From: Candidatus Nomurabacteria bacterium | GTDB taxonomy: Bacteria > Patescibacteriota > Minisyncoccia > Phycocordibacterales > UBA5272 | Length of the DNA stretch: 64,000 nucleotides | Direction of reading: 5' to 3' | Assembly: GCA_040376695.1 (NCBI GenBank) | Contig: JBEIQD010000001.1 | Span: 80,726-144,725, forward strand | Part shown: positions 10,378 through 49,734 of the stretch, piece after piece | Layout: each line of letters opens with the position of its first letter | Position numbering within the stretch: the stretch's first letter is position 1 | Notes under the pieces: model-generated | Database searches by the model: none | What the model was told of the DNA's origin: nothing | What the model saw: the letters and a program-made list of their open reading frames with translations, nothing else | Translations under genes and position numbers: made by a program

Positions 10378-11004
10378 ATGAATGCAACCGATCGATTAGC
10401 AGAACTTTTTATGCGTTTCCCTGGCATTGGACCAAAACAAGCAAAACGCTTCGTGTATTATCTTCTGCGTGAACACTCTCATTTTAAGGAACAGCTTATC
10501 AAAGCTCTCGAGGAACTTAAGTTCACTGGCAAACAATGTGAAATGTGTTTTAGGTATTTTGGTGACAAGAATCCAAATAGTACTAAGACAATGTGCTCTA
10601 TTTGTGAAGATGAGACGCGCGATCGATCCATTCTTATGGTCCTTGAAAAGGAGCTTGATATGGATGCCATTGAAAAAACTGGTTCCTATACAGGGTTGTA
10701 TTTTATTCTAGGAAACCTTGTACCACCTCTTACTGAAAAACCTTCTGAAATTATTCGTATACGGGAACTCACACTACGAATACATTCCACACTTGAAAAA
10801 AACGAGTTAAAGGAGATTATTTTTGCGCTCCCGGTAACTGATTATGGAGATACCACGAAAGAGTATGTTGAAAAGACAATTAAACAGATTGTGGGTATAG
10901 AAAAAGCAAAGCTATCTAATCTCGCTCGAGGTCTTTCAAGCGGATTAGAACTTGAATACGTTGATAGGAATACCTTTGCTTCTGCGTTTGAACACAGAAA
11001 CTAA
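10378..11004 (+). CDS. recR: recombination protein RecR
   Basis: FPGIGPKQAKRFVYYLL (HhH), C-x2-C...C-x2-C zinc finger (CEMC...CSIC), then a Toprim region. Confidence 0.9.
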   Translation: MNATDRLAELFMRFPGIGPKQAKRFVYYLLREHSHFKEQLIKALEELKFTGKQCEMCFRYFGDKNPNSTKTMCSICEDETRDRSILMVLEKELDMDAIEKTGSYTGLYFILGNLVPPLTEKPSEIIRIRELTLRIHSTLEKNELKEIIFALPVTDYGDTTKEYVEKTIKQIVGIEKAKLSNLARGLSSGLELEYVDRNTFASAFEHRN

Positions 11005-11701: not shown

Positions 11702-12019
11702 TTAGTTGATTGCGTCAATCTTAAGTGACATGAACGGCTGTCGGTGACCGTTACGCTTGTGGTAACGAGACTTAGCTCGGTAACGTACAACCATAACCTT
11801 ATCAAGCTTGCCTGATTCAGTGATAGTAGCCTTTACTGTAGAGCCTGCCACGTATGGAGCTCCAAGAGTAGTAGTAGCACCATCATCCTTAAGGACAACA
11901 GATTCGATAGTGATTGAATCACCTACCTTGTATTCACCCTTGATCTTCTCAACGGCGATTTCGTCCCCTACAGCAACTTTGTACTGCTTTCCCCCTGTTT
12001 GAATAACTGCGAATGTCAT
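11702..12019 (-). CDS. rplU: 50S ribosomal protein L21
   Basis: MTFAVIQTGGKQYKVAVGDEIAVEKI...: canonical L21 N-terminus. Confidence 0.9.
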   Translation of the reverse strand: MTFAVIQTGGKQYKVAVGDEIAVEKIKGEYKVGDSITIESVVLKDDGATTTLGAPYVAGSTVKATITESGKLDKVMVVRYRAKSRYHKRNGHRQPFMSLKIDAIN

Positions 12020-12077: not shown

Positions 12078-12105
12078 TTGACATAGTATGTATACATTGT
12101 ATAAT
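12078..12105 (+). promoter_or_regulatory. near-consensus sigma70 promoter, TTGACA-16-TATAAT
   Basis: ttgaca 12078-12083, tataat 12100-12105, about 30 nt upstream of the 12136 start. Confidence 0.55.
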
Positions 12106-12135
12106 GAGTAAGTTCTTTAACAATGGAGACTTTAT

Positions 12136-12438
12136 ATGAAATTCTGGCATGCTGTGTTCATTGCATTCATGCTCTGTGTCAGCGCTGTTGTGGCCTGGGA
12201 AAACCTTTCTGGTTACTACCGGCTGATGATGGTGCTGGCCCTGATTTTGTGGGTTCTGTTCGTCTTGGCTGCATTCTTGCTCCAGGTGTTCACGGCCGAA
12301 AGAGCCTATCGTCCATATCCGTTGGGAACCCGTTTTCAACGGAAGATGTTCTGGCGGACGGTGGCTCTCGGCCCCCTCATGTTTCTTTTTTTGGACCCTG
12401 TGTTCAAAGGGAAGCCTCTTATCAAACTGCCAGATTAA
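12136..12438 (+). CDS. small (100 aa) membrane protein encoded by a high-GC islet (hypothetical). Likely horizontally acquired.
   Basis: ORF with 2-3 TM helices. Codons are dominated by ctg/gcc/ggc, unlike neighbours. It is flanked by a consensus promoter and a strong terminator. Overlapping ORFs 12067..12465(-) and 12123..12725(+) look like GC-driven shadows. Confidence 0.5.
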   Translation: MKFWHAVFIAFMLCVSAVVAWENLSGYYRLMMVLALILWVLFVLAAFLLQVFTAERAYRPYPLGTRFQRKMFWRTVALGPLMFLFLDPVFKGKPLIKLPD

Positions 12439-12443
12439 ACCCC

Positions 12444-12476
12444 TGGTACCAAAAACGGCGCACATGTGCGCCGTTT
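12444..12476. terminator. bidirectional intrinsic terminator (aacggcgcac-at-gtgcgccgtt + T9)
   Basis: Perfect 10-bp GC-rich stem with A-tract 5' and T-tract 3'. Serves the 12136 gene (+) and rmuC (-). Confidence 0.7.
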
Positions 12477-12486
12477 TTTTTATTTC

Positions 12487-13542
12487 CTATTCTTCTTCGA
12501 ATGTCGGTTTGTCTAGAAGTGTTGGTTCAATCCCTATCTCCTCTCCCGTTATTCGAAGCACATCTTTATCTAACTTCTTCAGTTCCTTGTACGCTGTATT
12601 GTAATGATTCACACTTGTCCCCAATGTCACTCCAAGCTTTCTCATATAATCCTCATACGCCGCTAAGTGGTTACCAAGCTCTTCAACTCGCTTTTGGATA
12701 TGTTTTGCGCTCTCCTCAATCTTGAACGCCTTAAAGCCAAATAACACAGATTGGAGGTATGCATAGAACGTGGTCGGAGAAACAATAATCACCTTCTTTT
12801 TATTGTAAGCGTATTCAATTAAATTTTGCGTGTTAACCGCTCCCTTTGAAACCTGATTAACAAGAAGATCATAGTAGATACCTTCTGCTGGAATAAACAT
12901 AAAAGCGAACGGAAGCGTTCCTTCTTCTGGTTTAATATACTTAGCTGTTTCATCAATTCGTTTCTGAATATCTTTTTTGAATTCATTTTGATAAAAGGCT
13001 GTGTCTTCCTCATCGATAGCATTCATAAGACGCTGGTAGTTATCAAGAGAATACTTCGCATCTACTGGAATAATCCCTTCTTTTGTATGAATAACCGCAT
13101 CCACCGCTTCACCACTTTTAAAGTAATACTGCATTTCATATTGACCTGGGGCGAGCATGTTGGAAAGGATGAGTTCAAGAGACGCTTCGCCTAAATTTCC
13201 TCGTTGCTTCTGATGGGTAAGTACCTTCTCAAGGTTTTGAAGTTGCTCAGTCATTGAGAATACTTGTTTATTTCCTTCTTTCACCTCTGTAAGCTCTCGG
13301 GTGATGTCGGTAATGAGACGGTTGGCTTCTGCTCCTTGACGATGAAGCACTTGATGAAGGTCTGAAGCTGATCGTTCTAGTTTATTTTCTACCGTGTTAC
13401 GTAAACGTTCTAATTGGTCTTGAAGAATGAGAAATGTCTGATCTTCAGTATCATTGTTCTTTGTAGAACCACGAAGTAAGATAATGACGAGCAGTACAGT
13501 GATAATTGTTCCAAAAATGGCGATAAGAATAGTAGGAGTCAT
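12487..13542 (-). CDS. rmuC: DNA recombination protein RmuC
   Basis: N-terminal TM, long coiled-coil, then QKQRGNLGEASLELILSNMLAPGQYEMQYYF...GIIPVDAKY, the RmuC (DUF195) signature region. Confidence 0.8.
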   Translation of the reverse strand: MTPTILIAIFGTIITVLLVIILLRGSTKNNDTEDQTFLILQDQLERLRNTVENKLERSASDLHQVLHRQGAEANRLITDITRELTEVKEGNKQVFSMTEQLQNLEKVLTHQKQRGNLGEASLELILSNMLAPGQYEMQYYFKSGEAVDAVIHTKEGIIPVDAKYSLDNYQRLMNAIDEEDTAFYQNEFKKDIQKRIDETAKYIKPEEGTLPFAFMFIPAEGIYYDLLVNQVSKGAVNTQNLIEYAYNKKKVIIVSPTTFYAYLQSVLFGFKAFKIEESAKHIQKRVEELGNHLAAYEDYMRKLGVTLGTSVNHYNTAYKELKKLDKDVLRITGEEIGIEPTLLDKPTFEEE

Positions 13543-13612
13543 GTGATTTTAGTATAGCAGAGTCATTTAAATCTGACCTGAGGATGCTTACAACATCATA
13601 TCTTGAGAAACT

Positions 13613-13640
13613 TGACAATATTAACATATATGCTATATTG
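13613..13640 (+). promoter_or_regulatory. sigma70-like promoter, TTGACA-16-TATATT, upstream of the 65%-GC islet
   Basis: ttgaca 13613-13618 and tatatt 13635-13640. Confidence 0.4.
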
Positions 13641-13697
13641 ATGATGTCAAGCAATCGTGCTTGTCACGTGTTCATTTCAACTCAAGGAGAAAAGCCA

Positions 13698-13874
13698 ATG
13701 GCTCGCACTCATTCCCCTCCCCACAAAGGCACTGCCGCATTGAGCACCACTTTTACCTTCAAGCACAACGGCCTGGGCGCTGCACCACCCGATCCCGCCG
13801 GCCGCGCTGTTGACACCAAACGCCGTTCCGCCAAGACCCGTTCCCGCGGCGGCGCCGCCGTGACCATGCACTGA
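13698..13874 (+). CDS. 58-aa Arg/Ala/Pro/Gly-rich basic ORF in an islet of about 65% GC. A protein or a structured RNA; unresolved.
   Basis: AAGGAG RBS 8 nt upstream of ATG. MARTHSPPHKGTAALSTTFTFKHNGLGAAPPDPAGRAVDTKRRSAKTRSRGGAAVTMH. All six frames are open here because of GC, so ORF length alone is weak evidence. Confidence 0.3.
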   Translation: MARTHSPPHKGTAALSTTFTFKHNGLGAAPPDPAGRAVDTKRRSAKTRSRGGAAVTMH

Positions 13875-13977
13875 CCCGGCCAAGGGCTGGCCAGGCAGCG
13901 CAAACACTGCGCTGCCGTGCCTCCCAAAAAACCTGACGACTAGCTCGTCATAACGGTGACAAAGGACTCACCAATAA

Positions 13978-14012
13978 ACCATTCTCCAAAAGAGAGTGGT
14001 TTTTTATTTTTT
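13978..14012 (+). terminator. intrinsic terminator ending the high-GC islet transcript
   Basis: ccattctc-caaaa-gagagtgg followed by tttttatttttt. Confidence 0.45.
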
Positions 14013-14044
14013 CCAATTAAGGACCATGGTATAATACCTTTACT

Positions 14045-14491
14045 ATGCAAGAACAAATTAAAGCAGCAATAAAACCAGCGATGATAGCAAAAGATACGGT
14101 GCGCCTCGGCACACTTCGTATGCTTCTCGCTGCATTTACTAATGAACTCGTGACACAGGGACGTCCACCAACAGACCCTCTTTCTGATGAGGATTGTATG
14201 AAGGTTATTAAGCGTCTCGCTAAGCAGCGAAAGGATTCAATCGAACAGTTCGTTTCAGGTGGACGTGAAGATTTAGCAATTGATGAGAAAGCTGAACTTT
14301 CGATCATTGAGGAACTTCTTCCTGCACAAATGACAGAAGAAGAGGTTGAAACTCGTATTAAAGCAAAGCTTGCAGAGTCTCCACTTGACCCTACAAAGAA
14401 AGGGCAGTTTGTTGGAACAATGATGAAGGAGCTTGGTGATACAGCAGACGGCGCAATGGTAAAAGCTGTTATCGATAGACTAACTGCGTAA
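14045..14491 (+). CDS. GatB/YqeY-domain protein
   Basis: Resembles the YqeY/GatB C-terminal domain family throughout (IKAAIKPAMIAKDTVRLGTLRML..., LSDEDCMKVIKRLAKQRKDSIEQF). Confidence 0.8.
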   Translation: MQEQIKAAIKPAMIAKDTVRLGTLRMLLAAFTNELVTQGRPPTDPLSDEDCMKVIKRLAKQRKDSIEQFVSGGREDLAIDEKAELSIIEELLPAQMTEEEVETRIKAKLAESPLDPTKKGQFVGTMMKELGDTADGAMVKAVIDRLTA

Positions 14492-14503
14492 ACAATACTT
14501 ACC

Positions 14504-14812
14504 ATGGAGATGAGACCAAGAGAGATATCAGAAGAACAGGTACAGCCAACTCTTTTTATTGAAAATATCCCTCCCAAGGCTGAAGATATTACTGAGATAC
14601 ACATGAAAGATTTGGATACTTTTCTTTCTTCAAAACTGGTTCTTAATCCTGATAACACAATATCTGGTTATCGATTTGGACTTCTTTCCATCTTTGCTTC
14701 TTCTCATGGAATTTCAGATGAAGTACTAAAAAAGTATCTTTCATACAGAGGGATTGGTCTCGATTCAAAACTCCCACCAGAGGAATCTTCAAGTAACATA
14801 AAGTTTCACTAG
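14504..14812 (+). CDS. hypothetical protein
   Basis: 102-aa ORF followed by a clean terminator. No motif recognised. Confidence 0.4.
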   Translation: MEMRPREISEEQVQPTLFIENIPPKAEDITEIHMKDLDTFLSSKLVLNPDNTISGYRFGLLSIFASSHGISDEVLKKYLSYRGIGLDSKLPPEESSSNIKFH

Positions 14813-49182: not shown

Positions 49183-49734
49183 CTAGTTCATGTTGTAATG
49201 ACGCACATCCACTGCTCCATGGTTCATAAACACATCTTCAGTGCTTGTAGGAGTTCCTCGTGCAATGACGAGCACATCTCCGCGTCGTACATGGTCTTCA
49301 TAGAGTTGCACGTCCTGCTTTTCGATACCAAGATTAGTAAGTGCTCCGATTAGTCCACCAGCAGCAGCTCCTGTGGCCGCTCCAGCAACCGCAGTTGCGG
49401 CTACTCCAGTAAAACCAAGTGCGGCAGCCAAAGGCCCTGCAACTATTAGTGTCCCAAGTCCTGGAAGCACTCCATTCGCAACAACGAGACCTGCGATACC
49501 TCCGATAATAGCCCCAGTTGTTGCTCCAGTAGCTGCACCTTGACCGATCTTATCTCCAGACTGTCCATCTGTAATGGTACCTTTATCATTTATATATACA
49601 TATGATAGGTCAGATTCGTTTACACCAAACTGGCGAAGTTCATTAAGGGCACTTTCCGCAGAAGCGTGAGTTGTAAATACTCCAATTGTTGTAATCATAG
49701 TGTGTATAGTTAGTTTGTCCGTTAATTCCCACAT
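49183..49734 (-). CDS. general-stress-protein-like (YflT/DUF1269-type N-domain plus glycine-zipper C-domain)
   Basis: MITTIGVFTTHASAESALNELRQFGVNESDLSYVY..., then GAATGATTGAIIGGIAGLVVANG... Gly-zipper. Confidence 0.45.
   Translation of the reverse strand: MWELTDKLTIHTMITTIGVFTTHASAESALNELRQFGVNESDLSYVYINDKGTITDGQSGDKIGQGAATGATTGAIIGGIAGLVVANGVLPGLGTLIVAGPLAAALGFTGVAATAVAGAATGAAAGGLIGALTNLGIEKQDVQLYEDHVRRGDVLVIARGTPTSTEDVFMNHGAVDVRHYNMN

What the first reader, a model, noticed from the sequence alone, without database searches (positions are those of the whole stretch)
13600..14015. Islet of about 65% GC with its own promoter, RBS and terminator
A stretch of about 250 bp (13680-13930) is far more GC-rich than anything else in the window. 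On its 5' side sits a TTGACA-16-TATATT promoter (13613-13640) and an AAGGAG RBS. Its 3' side carries a perfect 9-bp hairpin (ggcagcgca-aacac-tgcgctgcc, about 13893-13915) and a terminator (about 13978-14012).

It could encode a 58-aa Arg/Ala/Pro/Gly-rich basic peptide (MARTHSPPHKG...RRSAKTRSRGGAAVTMH) with no recognisable family. Alternatively, in AT-rich genomes a GC-rich block like this is usually a structured RNA. I see none of the tmRNA, RNase P, SRP or 6S motifs I can recall. The element is thus either a foreign peptide gene (possibly a RiPP-like or nucleic-acid-binding peptide) or an unclassified structured RNA.
Basis: seen in the sequence. Interest (0 to 1): 0.65.

Follow-up and report, generated by a model that had tools for sequence, protein, structure and literature searches.

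The report
GC-rich orphan small-protein gene cassette
The GC-rich islet is a real, self-contained gene for a 58-residue orphan peptide in a Paceibacteria (CPR) genome, built from codons the genome otherwise avoids and followed by a conserved, strongly folded 3' RNA tail; it is not a known structured RNA and not an assembly artefact.

Summary
Positions 13680-13930 are 64.5% GC against a window mean of 40%, the clearest outlier in 64 kb. The promoter, Shine-Dalgarno (SD) site, 58-codon ORF, hairpin and terminator are all present, within a base or two of the stated coordinates.

Rfam and ARAGORN find no known RNA. Three further independent assemblies carry the same element between rmuC and yqeY. 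Comparing them supports coding:
- Start and stop are conserved.
- All six indels in the ORF are multiples of three; indels in the UTRs are not.
- The first 12 codons differ by six synonymous changes and one replacement.
- The annotated frame has the lowest pN/pS.

The ORF RNA folds worse than shuffled sequence (z +1.9). The 3' UTR folds far better (z -7.2).

The peptide is an orphan: only two relatives among 1.84 billion representative proteins, no Pfam, NCBIfam or PADLOC match, and a disordered prediction. Its codon usage is alien (GC3 0.69, C3 0.57, against 0.32 and 0.15 for the genome).

In related genomes this spacer is either about 45 bp or holds diverse inserts. Several of these share the 5' and 3' RNA modules but carry unrelated C-rich ORFs.

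Function and the cause of the composition remain unresolved.

The parts
13612..13639 (+). Sigma-70-type promoter: -35 TTGACA (13612-13617), 16-nt spacer, TG extension (13631-13632), -10 TATATT (13634-13639)
   Evidence: 11 of 12, TG present. One of four matches of at least 11/12 in the 64-kb window. Conserved in all four orthologous copies. TTGACA is also perfect in the cassettes of related genomes.
13646..13665 (+). Hairpin at the predicted 5' end of the transcript (stem CAAGCA 13648-13653 / TGCTTG 13658-13663)
   Evidence: A stem at the same place is kept in L067 (loop change) and in L001 (shorter stem CAGC/GCTG). Analogous 5' hairpins occur in other cassettes. The transcription start is inferred, not mapped.
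13684..13689 (+). Shine-Dalgarno sequence AAGGAG, 8 nt upstream of the ATG
   Evidence: Invariant in the four orthologues, with spacing of 6-8 nt. SD-led genes are a minority in this genome (9 of 70 ORFs).
13698..13874 (+). ORF of 58 codons plus TGA: MARTHSPPHKGTAALSTTFTFKHNGLGAAPPDPAGRAVDTKRRSAKTRSRGGAAVTMH. The RNA is C-rich (42% C, 23% G), U-poor and unstructured
   Evidence: coding signature. (GC3 0.69, C3 0.57, against genome 0.318 and 0.154). (folding z +1.9 and +1.7). (two homologues only). (AF2 pLDDT 61, no secondary structure).
13884..13925 (+). GC-rich hairpin just after the stop codon (perfect 9-bp core 13894-13902 / 13908-13916, loop AACAC)
   Evidence: Kept in L067 and L001, with one compensatory A-U to G-C pair. 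A GC-rich hairpin of different sequence stands at this place in L021 and L023 (by eye).
13934..13950 (+). Hairpin A, TGACGA-CTAGC-TCGTCA. Its stem sequence is conserved across cassettes
   Evidence: The pattern occurs once in the window (0.06 expected). Among the 73 loci fetched by that point it occurs only in cassette 3' UTRs (L021, L023, L066).
13955..13972 (+). Hairpin B, GGTGA-CAAAGGAC-TCACC, showing an SD-like AAGGA in its loop
   Evidence: Identical in the four orthologues. Present with altered stems in L023, L002 and L021.
13976..14012 (+). Intrinsic terminator (11-pair stem 13976-14002, then TTTTTTATTTTTT)
   Evidence: L067 and L001 have a terminator hairpin of different sequence at the same place.
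13623..13650 (-). Possible second promoter on the opposite strand (TTGACA-16-TATGTT), interleaved with the + promoter inside the palindrome 13611-13651 and pointing towards rmuC
   Evidence: inverted repeat I1. Its -35 is 5 of 6 in L067 and L001 (read). Function is not shown.
13551..13559 (-). Left boundary of the insert: TGCTATACT extended -10 of rmuC, 8 nt before its ATG (leaderless type)
   Evidence: In relatives with an 'empty' spacer this element is about 20-30 bp from the yqeY -10.
14027..14035 (+). Right boundary of the insert: TGGTATAAT extended -10 of yqeY, 9 nt before its ATG at 14045 (leaderless type). yqeY therefore does not depend on the cassette transcript

Best explanation
The islet is an independent, leadered transcription unit of about 365 nt. 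It has a near-consensus promoter, a 5' hairpin, a strong SD, a 58-codon ORF, four 3' hairpins and a terminator.

It sits between the back-to-back leaderless promoters of rmuC and yqeY in a Paceibacteria (CPR) genome.

Shown:
- The ORF is under selection as a reading frame and, in part, as an amino-acid sequence.
- The encoded protein is a lineage-restricted orphan.
- Its coding RNA is C-rich, U-poor and unstructured.
- The 3' UTR is strongly folded and is conserved beyond the ORF.

Inferred:
- The unit is built for abundant, stable expression.
- Its main product is a small, basic, intrinsically disordered peptide. Its conserved N-terminal dodecapeptide (MARTHxPPHKGT) and C-terminal D.KRR....R.RG..V.MH motif suggest binding to a polyanionic partner, such as nucleic acid or the ribosome.
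- The 3' hairpins protect the mRNA and may also act as an RNA domain in their own right.

The alien codon usage is a property of the whole cassette class. It probably reflects selection on the mRNA (C-ending codons, little G and U) rather than on translation speed.
For: Real and reproducible. The same element lies at the same locus in four independent assemblies.

Coding:
- ATG, SD and TGA are conserved.
- In a codon-blind MAFFT nucleotide alignment, the six indels inside the ORF are 3, 12, 3, 3, 3 and 6 nt. UTR indels include 1, 2 and 5 nt.
- Codons 1-12 differ by six synonymous third-position changes and one replacement.
- pN is below pS in every diverged pair: 0.25/0.54, 0.32/0.41 and 0.18/0.29.
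- The annotated frame has the lowest pN/pS in two of the three diverged pairs (0.38, 0.55) and 0.57 in the third, where the antisense frame that shares its wobble positions scores 0.52. That antisense frame scores 0.46-0.61; the other four frames score 0.71-1.62.

Not a structured RNA. The ORF has z +1.88 and the orthologues +1.3 to +1.7. Rfam finds nothing at gathering or relaxed thresholds. No tmRNA is found.

Structured, conserved tail:
- The 3' UTR has z -7.2.
- nhmmer and a covariance model find the 3' module in L002, L021 and L023 at 52-73 bits. They find the 5' module in L021 and L033. The ORFs of these cassettes are unrelated.

Strong expression signals. The promoter is one of four matches of at least 11/12 in 64 kb.

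Orphan status:
- Two homologues among 1.84 billion representatives, and the same two among 5.8 billion 90% clusters.
- No Pfam, NCBIfam or PADLOC hit.
- AF2 gives pLDDT 61 with no secondary structure.

Composition:
- GC3 is 0.69, against 0.318 +/- 0.057 (maximum 0.49) for 54 long ORFs.
- The peptide would be 52.6% GC with genome codon usage; it is 66.1%.
- Ribosomal-protein genes have GC3 0.33-0.42.
Against: - Only three effectively independent lineages are available, so the coding statistics rest on small counts.
- Overall constraint on the peptide is weak. pN is 25-50 times that of rmuC.
- Cassettes with homologous UTRs in genomes whose RmuC is 85-90% identical carry ORFs with no demonstrable similarity. 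Long-term conservation therefore lies in the RNA modules, the presence of an ORF and its composition, not in the peptide sequence.
- No expression, ribosome-profiling or proteomic data were available.
- The proposed binding partner is a guess from charge alone. Peptides of other cassettes are not basic.
Confidence: 0.6

Rival explanations
1. Dual-function or mainly regulatory RNA. The conserved functional core is the RNA: the 5' module, the 3' hairpins A and B with the AAGGA loop, and the terminator. The ORF is there to be translated, for example to keep Rho off a C-rich, unstructured, rut-like stretch or to sense translation capacity. Its peptide is secondary. This resembles SgrS/SgrT, where the base-pairing 3' part is conserved and the ORF is variable.
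For: - The 3' and 5' modules are conserved among cassettes whose ORFs are unalignable and 31-66 codons long.
- Hairpin A is conserved in sequence and occurs nowhere else in about 760 kb.
- The ORF RNA is C-rich, G-poor and less folded than shuffles. By general knowledge this is the make-up of Rho loading sites.
- Between the window and L066 the whole cassette is 1.4% diverged, against 3.8-4.3% for the flanking genes. There are no synonymous changes in the ORF where about 7 would be expected from the rmuC pS.
Against: - The amino-acid sequence of the N-terminus is kept while synonymous sites change. Translation alone would not require this.
- No target, seed or partner can be named.
- C:G skew is weak in several other cassettes (L003, L009, L017).
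- Presence of Rho in this genome was not tested.
- Low window-L066 divergence could equally reflect a recent recombinational transfer.
Confidence: 0.22
2. Recently acquired foreign gene. The ORF came by horizontal transfer from a bacterium of about 65% GC, possibly the host of this episymbiont. It landed in a recombination hot spot, and its composition is simply the donor's.
For: - Codon usage (C3 > G3 >> T3 > A3) resembles that of high-GC bacteria (the comparison is from general knowledge).
- The unit uses -35 plus SD signals in a genome where 24 of 69 ORFs have a -10 ending 6-10 nt before the start codon (a leaderless-type arrangement), and only 9 of 70 have an SD.
- In relatives the rmuC-yqeY spacer is either 37-62 bp or filled with diverse inserts.
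- Ten of the 18 GC islets found in 752 kb lie in this spacer, which makes up about 3% of the sequence.
Against: - No donor was found. Exhaustive HMMER finds only the two orthologues, and the 157-aa GC-rich ORF of L006 is an orphan too. There is no plasmid, phage or viral match.
- The GC-rich zone starts at the ATG and ends about 50 nt after the stop. The promoter, UTRs and terminator are of native composition and are shared between cassettes.
- GC3 stays at 0.69-0.79 in lineages separated by pS 0.4-0.5.
- No mobility gene lies nearby.
Confidence: 0.12
3. Unclassified structured non-coding RNA. The GC-rich block is an RNA fold and the ORF is an accident of low stop-codon density.
For: - GC-rich sequence is open in several frames.
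- The whole transcript has z -2.97.
- Other relatives hold apparently non-coding transcripts in the same spacer.
Against: - The negative z comes only from the UTR hairpins. The ORF alone has z +1.88.
- There are only 2 compensatory pairs among 63 predicted, and both lie outside the ORF-internal helices.
- Substitutions show 3-nt periodicity and indels are in frame.
- Rfam finds nothing.
Confidence: 0.04
4. Assembly chimera or contaminant fragment.
For: A composition break of about 25 percentage points over 250 bp.
Against: The same insert with the same junctions is found in four independent assemblies from different samples. They have diverged in step with the flanks.
Confidence: 0.01

Closest known systems
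Orphan (taxonomically restricted) bacterial small-protein genes (sORFs under 60 aa)
   Same: A short ORF with its own promoter, SD and terminator. No family assignment, a disordered prediction, narrow distribution and fast evolution.
   Different: Orphan and acquired genes in bacteria are, from general knowledge, usually AT-richer than their genome. This one is 25 points GC-richer and uses the genome's rarest codons. It also sits in a cassette whose non-coding ends outlast the ORF.
Dual-function sRNAs such as SgrS/SgrT, RNAIII/hld and SR1/SR1P (recalled from the literature, not tested)
   Same: One transcript of a few hundred nt with a small ORF in the 5' half and a conserved, structured 3' part ending in the terminator. 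The ORF is less conserved than the 3' part.
   Different: No base-pairing target or chaperone is known here. The ORF occupies half of the transcript and shows amino-acid-level constraint in its clade. The extreme C-rich composition has no counterpart in those RNAs.
Hypervariable pheromone or bacteriocin precursor loci (agrD, comX, RiPP precursors)
   Same: A small ORF that diversifies quickly between close relatives within conserved flanks.
   Different: No processing, modifying or export gene lies next to it (rmuC, yqeY, rplU, recR). There is no signal or leader motif, and Pfam and NCBIfam give no hit.
Rho-dependent, translation-coupled leader ORFs (for example tnaC; recalled)
   Same: A translated short ORF on C-rich, unstructured RNA, containing Pro-Pro motifs.
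   Different: The unit ends in its own intrinsic terminator. The downstream gene yqeY has its own leaderless promoter and exists unchanged in relatives without the cassette.

Membership tests
Known structured RNA families (tmRNA, RNase P, SRP, 6S, riboswitches and the rest of Rfam 15) | Match to the family covariance model at or near the gathering score | tested here: not met
   At gathering thresholds the whole window yields only two tRNAs. A relaxed search of 13400-14200 gives a best hit of 19 bits with E about 1, on the terminator only. ARAGORN finds no tmRNA.
Structured non-coding RNA in general | Folds better than composition-matched shuffles and shows covarying pairs | tested here: not met
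   For the GC-rich block (the ORF), z is +1.88 and the orthologues give +1.3 to +1.7. No compensatory pair lies within the ORF-internal helices. The criterion is met only by the 3' UTR, with z -7.2.
Protein-coding gene | Conserved start and stop, SD at the proper distance, reading frame preserved across indels | tested here: met
   Six of six ORF indels are multiples of 3. The ATG, the TGA and AAGGAG (6-8 nt spacing) are invariant in four copies.
Protein-coding gene | Excess of synonymous over non-synonymous change in the annotated frame only | tested here: met
   pN/pS is 0.38, 0.57 and 0.55 in frame +0. Other frames give 0.71-1.62, except the antisense frame that shares the wobble positions. 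Codons 1-12 show 6 synonymous changes and 1 replacement. The counts are small.
RiPP or bacteriocin precursor | Adjacent modifying, processing or export genes, and a recognisable leader or core motif | tested here: not met
   The neighbours are rplU, rmuC, yqeY, recR, dnaB, cysS and small orphan ORFs without Pfam, NCBIfam or PADLOC hits. The peptide matches no family.
Dual-function sRNA (SgrS-like) | The 3' RNA part is conserved beyond the ORF and ends in the terminator | tested here: met
   The 3' module is found at 52-73 bits in L002, L021 and L023, which carry unrelated ORFs.
Dual-function sRNA (SgrS-like) | A demonstrable base-pairing target or regulatory effect of the RNA | not testable with these tools
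   This needs the complete genome plus expression or genetic data.
Leader peptide or transcription attenuator | The regulated gene lies downstream in the same transcription unit | tested here: not met
   An intrinsic terminator at 13976-14012 is followed by yqeY's own extended -10, 9 nt before its ATG. yqeY keeps that promoter in relatives with a spacer of 37-62 bp.
Type I toxin | A small hydrophobic or membrane peptide with an overlapping antisense RNA | tested here: not met
   The peptide has no hydrophobic segment and is Arg, Ala, Pro, Gly and Thr rich. On the minus strand the scan found only a promoter-like site (13650-13623) that points away from the ORF and two weak terminator-like hairpins; none forms an antisense unit over the ORF.
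Diversity-generating retroelement variable region | A near-identical template repeat and a reverse transcriptase nearby | tested here: not met
   nhmmer with the cassette finds no second copy in the 64-kb window. No repeat family was found. Reverse-transcriptase genes across the whole window were not systematically searched.
Horizontally acquired island | Atypical composition and codon usage | tested here: met
Horizontally acquired island | An identifiable donor lineage or mobility genes | tested here: not met
   Searches find no relatives outside the clade. No integrase or transposase lies next to it.

The most novel reading that the evidence does not exclude
The islet is one member of an undescribed class of Paceibacteria expression cassettes. 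A constant 5' module (consensus promoter, 5' hairpin, SD) and a constant 3' RNA module (hairpins A and B, terminator) flank an ORF whose sequence and length turn over completely. The ORF's C-rich, U-poor, unstructured character and C-ending codon usage are nevertheless maintained against an AT-rich background. This would be either a translation-coupled riboregulator or a locus for rapidly diversifying effector peptides of an episymbiont. In either case the alien composition would be selected, not inherited from a donor.
Probability: 0.25. Interest if true: 0.7.

Novelty: new variant of a known kind. Interest (0 to 1): 0.5.

Why it matters
CPR (Patescibacteria) genomes are small, and a large share of their genes are unassigned small ORFs that gene callers often miss. 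The L001 copy came to light only through DNA and tblastn comparison, not through the protein searches.

This case shows a small gene that differs from its genome in three ways: composition, codon usage and expression signals.

If the composition is actively maintained, that points to selection acting on mRNA make-up. Candidates are resistance to RNases, Rho loading or a C-specific RNA-binding factor. It could also point to repeated capture of foreign DNA in organisms that live on other cells.

The rmuC-yqeY spacer would be a convenient, syntenic marker locus for studying how such small genes are born, swapped and lost.

If the gene is merely a fast-evolving orphan peptide, the finding is modest. 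It still corrects the rule of thumb that a GC island in an AT-rich genome is a structured RNA.

Tried and rejected
Searches that found nothing:
- Rfam at gathering and relaxed thresholds on the window, and at gathering thresholds on 12 related loci, gave only tRNAs.
- ARAGORN found no tmRNA.
- Exact look-ups of window proteins in the contig index found nothing on record.
- Pfam, NCBIfam and PADLOC gave no hit for the peptide or for eight peptides of other cassettes.
- JGI metagenome contigs: the peptide-pattern scan confirmed no relatives. The 19-nt hairpin-B pattern gave six hits, all in unrelated contexts, so chance matches.
- Viral contigs: no peptide relatives. The 61 hits to the hairpin-A-plus-B pattern all failed the covariance model.
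- Plasmid and phage blastn found no match.
- One literature search returned no title or abstract on such elements; no paper was opened.

Hypotheses tested and not supported:
- Peptide-level homology between cassettes of different genomes, through an apparent (S/A)PP ... TF.G[LV]GA motif. A profile of the short peptides scores shuffled sequences as high as real ones. Pairwise scores are inconsistent among orthologues. This is not claimed.
- Translational optimisation as the cause of C-ending codons. Rejected because the rplU, rpmA and rplI genes have GC3 0.33-0.42 and C3 0.17-0.22.
- GC-biased gene conversion alone. Disfavoured because fourfold sites show C 26 against G 2.
- The second GC peak at 49256-49500. 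It is an ordinary Gly/Ala-rich membrane protein.

Not pursued:
- Fold search was not run, because the model is low-confidence.
Full report
1. THE OBSERVATION

The window averages 39.9% GC. In 250-nt windows the sd is 0.042. The maximum is 0.66 at 13700 and the runner-up is 0.544. In 100-nt windows the peak is 0.75 at 13766. Positions 13680-13930 hold C101 G61 A55 T34, so the block is rich in C rather than in GC generally.

- TTGACA-16-TATATT with a TG extension at 13612-13639.
- AAGGAG at 13684-13689.
- ATG at 13698 and TGA at 13872-13874.
- A perfect 9-bp hairpin at 13894-13916.
- A terminator at 13976-14012.

Only four promoter matches of at least 11/12 exist in the whole window on both strands, and this is one of them.

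2. CONTEXT AND REALITY

The neighbours are housekeeping genes:
- recR (10378-11004)
- rplU (11702-12019, minus strand)
- rmuC (12487-13542, minus strand)
- yqeY (14045-14491)
- dnaB, cysS, rplI and rpmA further out

A scan of one genome per species with RmuC returned 65 loci, all from Paceibacterota, Nomurabacteria or 'Patescibacteria' MAGs.

The same element lies between rmuC and yqeY in three other assemblies:
- L001, a GenBank groundwater MAG, about 84% nucleotide identity over the region.
- L066, a Logan assembly.
- L067, a second Logan assembly.

Four independent assemblies with the same junctions exclude a chimera.

3. RNA OR PEPTIDE?

Known RNA families. Rfam gives only two tRNAs in the window and nothing credible at relaxed thresholds. 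ARAGORN finds no tmRNA.

Evidence for coding from the four copies:
- The ATG, the SD and the TGA are invariant.
- A codon-blind nucleotide alignment places six indels in the ORF, of 3, 12, 3, 3, 3 and 6 nt. UTR indels include 1, 2 and 5 nt.
- The first twelve codons (MARTHSPPHKGT) differ by six synonymous third-position changes and one replacement.
- pN is below pS in all diverged pairs.
- Of the six frames, the annotated one has pN/pS of 0.38, 0.57 and 0.55, the lowest in two of the three diverged pairs. The antisense frame with coincident wobble positions scores 0.46-0.61 and edges it in the third pair (0.52 against 0.57). The other four frames lie at 0.71-1.62.
- Promoter, SD and terminator orientation choose the + frame.

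Evidence from folding:
- The ORF RNA alone folds worse than 198 of 200 dinucleotide shuffles, z +1.88. The orthologues give +1.3 to +1.7.
- The 138-nt 3' UTR folds into four hairpins with z -7.2, and 0 of 200 shuffles fold as well.

The GC-rich block is therefore coding and unstructured. The structured part is the less GC-rich tail.

4. THE PEPTIDE

An exhaustive HMMER search of 1.84 billion representatives finds two relatives: P0001 at 97% identity and P0002 at 62%. A third hit is a low-complexity match to a 958-aa repeat protein. A profile search of the 5.8-billion-cluster set finds the same two.

Pfam, NCBIfam and PADLOC give nothing. AlphaFold gives pLDDT 61 and no secondary structure.

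Twenty-seven of the 58 positions are invariant. They are concentrated in three places:
- the N-terminal dodecapeptide;
- N.LG..PPD in the middle;
- D.KRR....R.RG..V.MH at the C-terminus.

Constraint is weak overall. pN is 0.18-0.32, against 0.002-0.01 for rmuC. pS is 0.29-0.54, against 0.60-0.65.

5. COMPOSITION AND SIGNALS ARE ALIEN TO THE GENOME

Codon usage:
- GC3 is 0.69 and C3 is 0.57.
- For 54 long ORFs of the window, GC3 is 0.318 +/- 0.057 with a maximum of 0.49, and C3 is 0.154.
- With genome codon usage the peptide would be 52.6% GC; it is 66.1%.
- The preferred codons (GGC, GCC, ACC, CCC, TCC, CGC) are the genome's rarest in their families.
- Ribosomal-protein genes do not share this usage (GC3 0.33-0.42), so it is not the local optimal set.
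- At fourfold sites C outnumbers G by 26 to 2. This argues for a strand-specific (mRNA-level) cause rather than GC-biased gene conversion.

Expression signals:
- 24 of 69 ORFs in the window have a -10 hexamer ending 6-10 nt before the start codon, which indicates leaderless mRNAs.
- Only 9 of 70 ORFs have an SD-like motif.
- The islet's -35 element, 50-nt leader and strong SD are therefore atypical as well.

6. THE LOCUS IN RELATIVES

The divergent rmuC/yqeY pair is kept in 52 of the 65 loci. The spacer falls into two classes:
- In about 17 genomes it is 37-62 bp. It then consists of just two back-to-back leaderless -10 elements.
- In the others it is 91-2068 bp, with very diverse contents.

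Ten of the 18 strong GC islets found in 752 kb lie in this spacer, which makes up about 3% of the sequence.

Many filled spacers carry the same layout:
- a perfect TTGACA promoter;
- a 5' hairpin;
- AGGAG;
- a C-rich ORF of 31-157 codons, with GC3 0.65-0.87 in most and about 0.5 in the AT-richest genomes;
- 3' hairpins and a terminator.

All of these ORFs show C3 > G3 and A3 of at most 0.12, except in the AT-richest genomes, L043, L044 and L050.

Module homology:
- nhmmer with the four-copy alignment finds the 5' module in L021 (E 3e-6) and L033.
- It finds the 3' module in L023, L002 and L021.
- A covariance model of the 3' module scores these at 52-73 bits.
- Elsewhere in 760 kb the best score is 25 bits (E 0.002), with no confident match.

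Hairpin A (TGACGAG..CTCGTCA) is conserved in sequence. Hairpin B keeps an AGGA/AGGT loop on changing stems.

The ORFs inside these homologous frames (58, 37, 31 and 66 codons) show no demonstrable similarity. The 157-aa GC-rich ORF of L006 is itself an orphan. In the long run the RNA modules, the presence of an ORF and its composition persist. The peptide sequence does not.

7. INTERPRETATION

Shown:
- An independent, conserved transcription-unit architecture.
- A reading frame under selection.
- An orphan, disordered, basic product.
- An unstructured C-rich coding RNA.
- A structured 3' tail that is conserved beyond the ORF.

Inferred:
- High and stable expression, from the consensus promoter and the 5' and 3' hairpins.
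- The peptide as the main product in this clade.
- A polyanion-binding role, from charge alone.

The strongest rival is a dual-function or mainly RNA-based role, on the SgrS/SgrT pattern. In that view translation of a rut-like C-rich stretch and the 3' domain matter more than the peptide. It explains the long-term pattern. It also explains why the whole cassette is less diverged between the window and L066 than the flanking genes: 1.4% against 3.8-4.3%, binomial p 8e-4, with no synonymous change in the ORF. It does not explain why the N-terminal amino acids are kept while synonymous sites change.

Horizontal origin is compatible with the composition and the signals. It lacks any donor. It also fits poorly with a GC boundary that coincides with the ORF inside native, shared UTRs.

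8. VERDICT

The finding is real. The peptide reading is supported. The structured-RNA reading of the GC block is not.

The element belongs to no known family. It is best described as an orphan small-protein gene in a conserved expression cassette at a hypervariable spacer, and possibly a dual-function RNA.

Its function and the reason for its composition are open.

Interest is moderate. It would rise if more genomes and expression data show that the composition is actively maintained.

Noticed in passing
window, all long ORFs; examples 13551-13559 (-) before rmuC and 14027-14035 (+) before yqeY: Leaderless arrangement is common. 24 of 69 ORFs of at least 120 aa have a hexamer matching TATAAT or TATACT at 5 of 6 positions or better, ending 6-10 nt before the start codon (12 at exactly 6 nt). 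Other offsets mostly give 0-2 (at most 3). Only 9 of 70 ORFs have an SD-like motif.
   Followed up: partly
window 12078-12478 (+): A second self-contained unit lies on the other side of rmuC. It has a perfect TTGACA-16-TATAAT promoter (12078-12105), then GTTCTTTAACAA (12112-12123). That motif resembles the E. coli rrn boxA GCTCTTTAACAA, a recollection. Next come a 100-aa membrane-like ORF without family (12136-12438; GC3 0.63, also far above the genome) and a terminator at 12451-12478.
   Followed up: partly
window 12136-12438 and 14504-14812, compared with L066: Between the window and L066, rmuC and yqeY differ by about 4% in nucleotides. The two flanking orphan ORFs differ by 37-38% in nucleotides and are only 45% and 51% identical as proteins. 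This is a mosaic of conserved housekeeping genes and hyperdivergent small orphan genes. It suggests allele replacement by recombination or strong diversifying selection.
   Followed up: partly
L011, L018, L024, L038, L039 (and L014, L017): rmuC-yqeY spacer: In these relatives the spacer holds what looks like a non-coding transcript of about 250-300 nt. It starts with a hairpin followed by (G)CTCTTTAACAA or GTTCTTTAACAA, an rrn-boxA-like motif, and ends in a terminator. No Rfam family matches at gathering thresholds. L017 carries both this element and a GC-rich ORF cassette.
   Followed up: partly
L017, L020, L043, L044, L050: 3' part of their cassettes: A second mini-ORF of 8-10 codons is present (MKVRNNGPG, MKNKKRSSAG, MKLRITAG, MKNKLRSLAP). 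Its stop codon lies in the loop U(G/U)AAA(A/G) of a hairpin. The hairpin stem covaries: CCGGC/GCTGG, CCGGT/ACTGG, GCCGG/CCGGC, GCTCC/GGAGC. L017 and L020 differ by three synonymous and no non-synonymous changes (read by eye). The window's cassette lacks this mini-ORF.
   Followed up: no
window 13611-13651: The cassette promoter lies in an 18-nt inverted repeat that also forms a promoter-like site on the minus strand (TTGACA-16-TATGTT, 13650-13623) pointing at rmuC. The two sites interleave, so RNA polymerase binding to them would be mutually exclusive.
   Followed up: no
L037, spacer positions about 230-330: A run of N replaces most of the small ORF of the cassette in this record. It starts about 60 nt after the ATG. 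The flanks are 91-98% identical to L033, which has a 93-codon GC-rich ORF there. This is either a scaffold gap or masking.
   Followed up: no
L057 7870-8080: This is another GC-rich (66%) stretch outside the rmuC-yqeY spacer, downstream of rmuC in the locus orientation and just after the end of a coding frame and a terminator-like hairpin. It has a -10-like TACTAT, no convincing ORF and a terminator-like end. It may be an unclassified RNA. L057 was among the loci with no Rfam hit.
   Followed up: no
window 49183-49734 (-): The second-highest GC peak of the window (0.56 at about 49350) is simply the Gly/Ala-rich hydrophobic core of a 183-aa protein. It is not an RNA or a foreign insert.
   Followed up: yes
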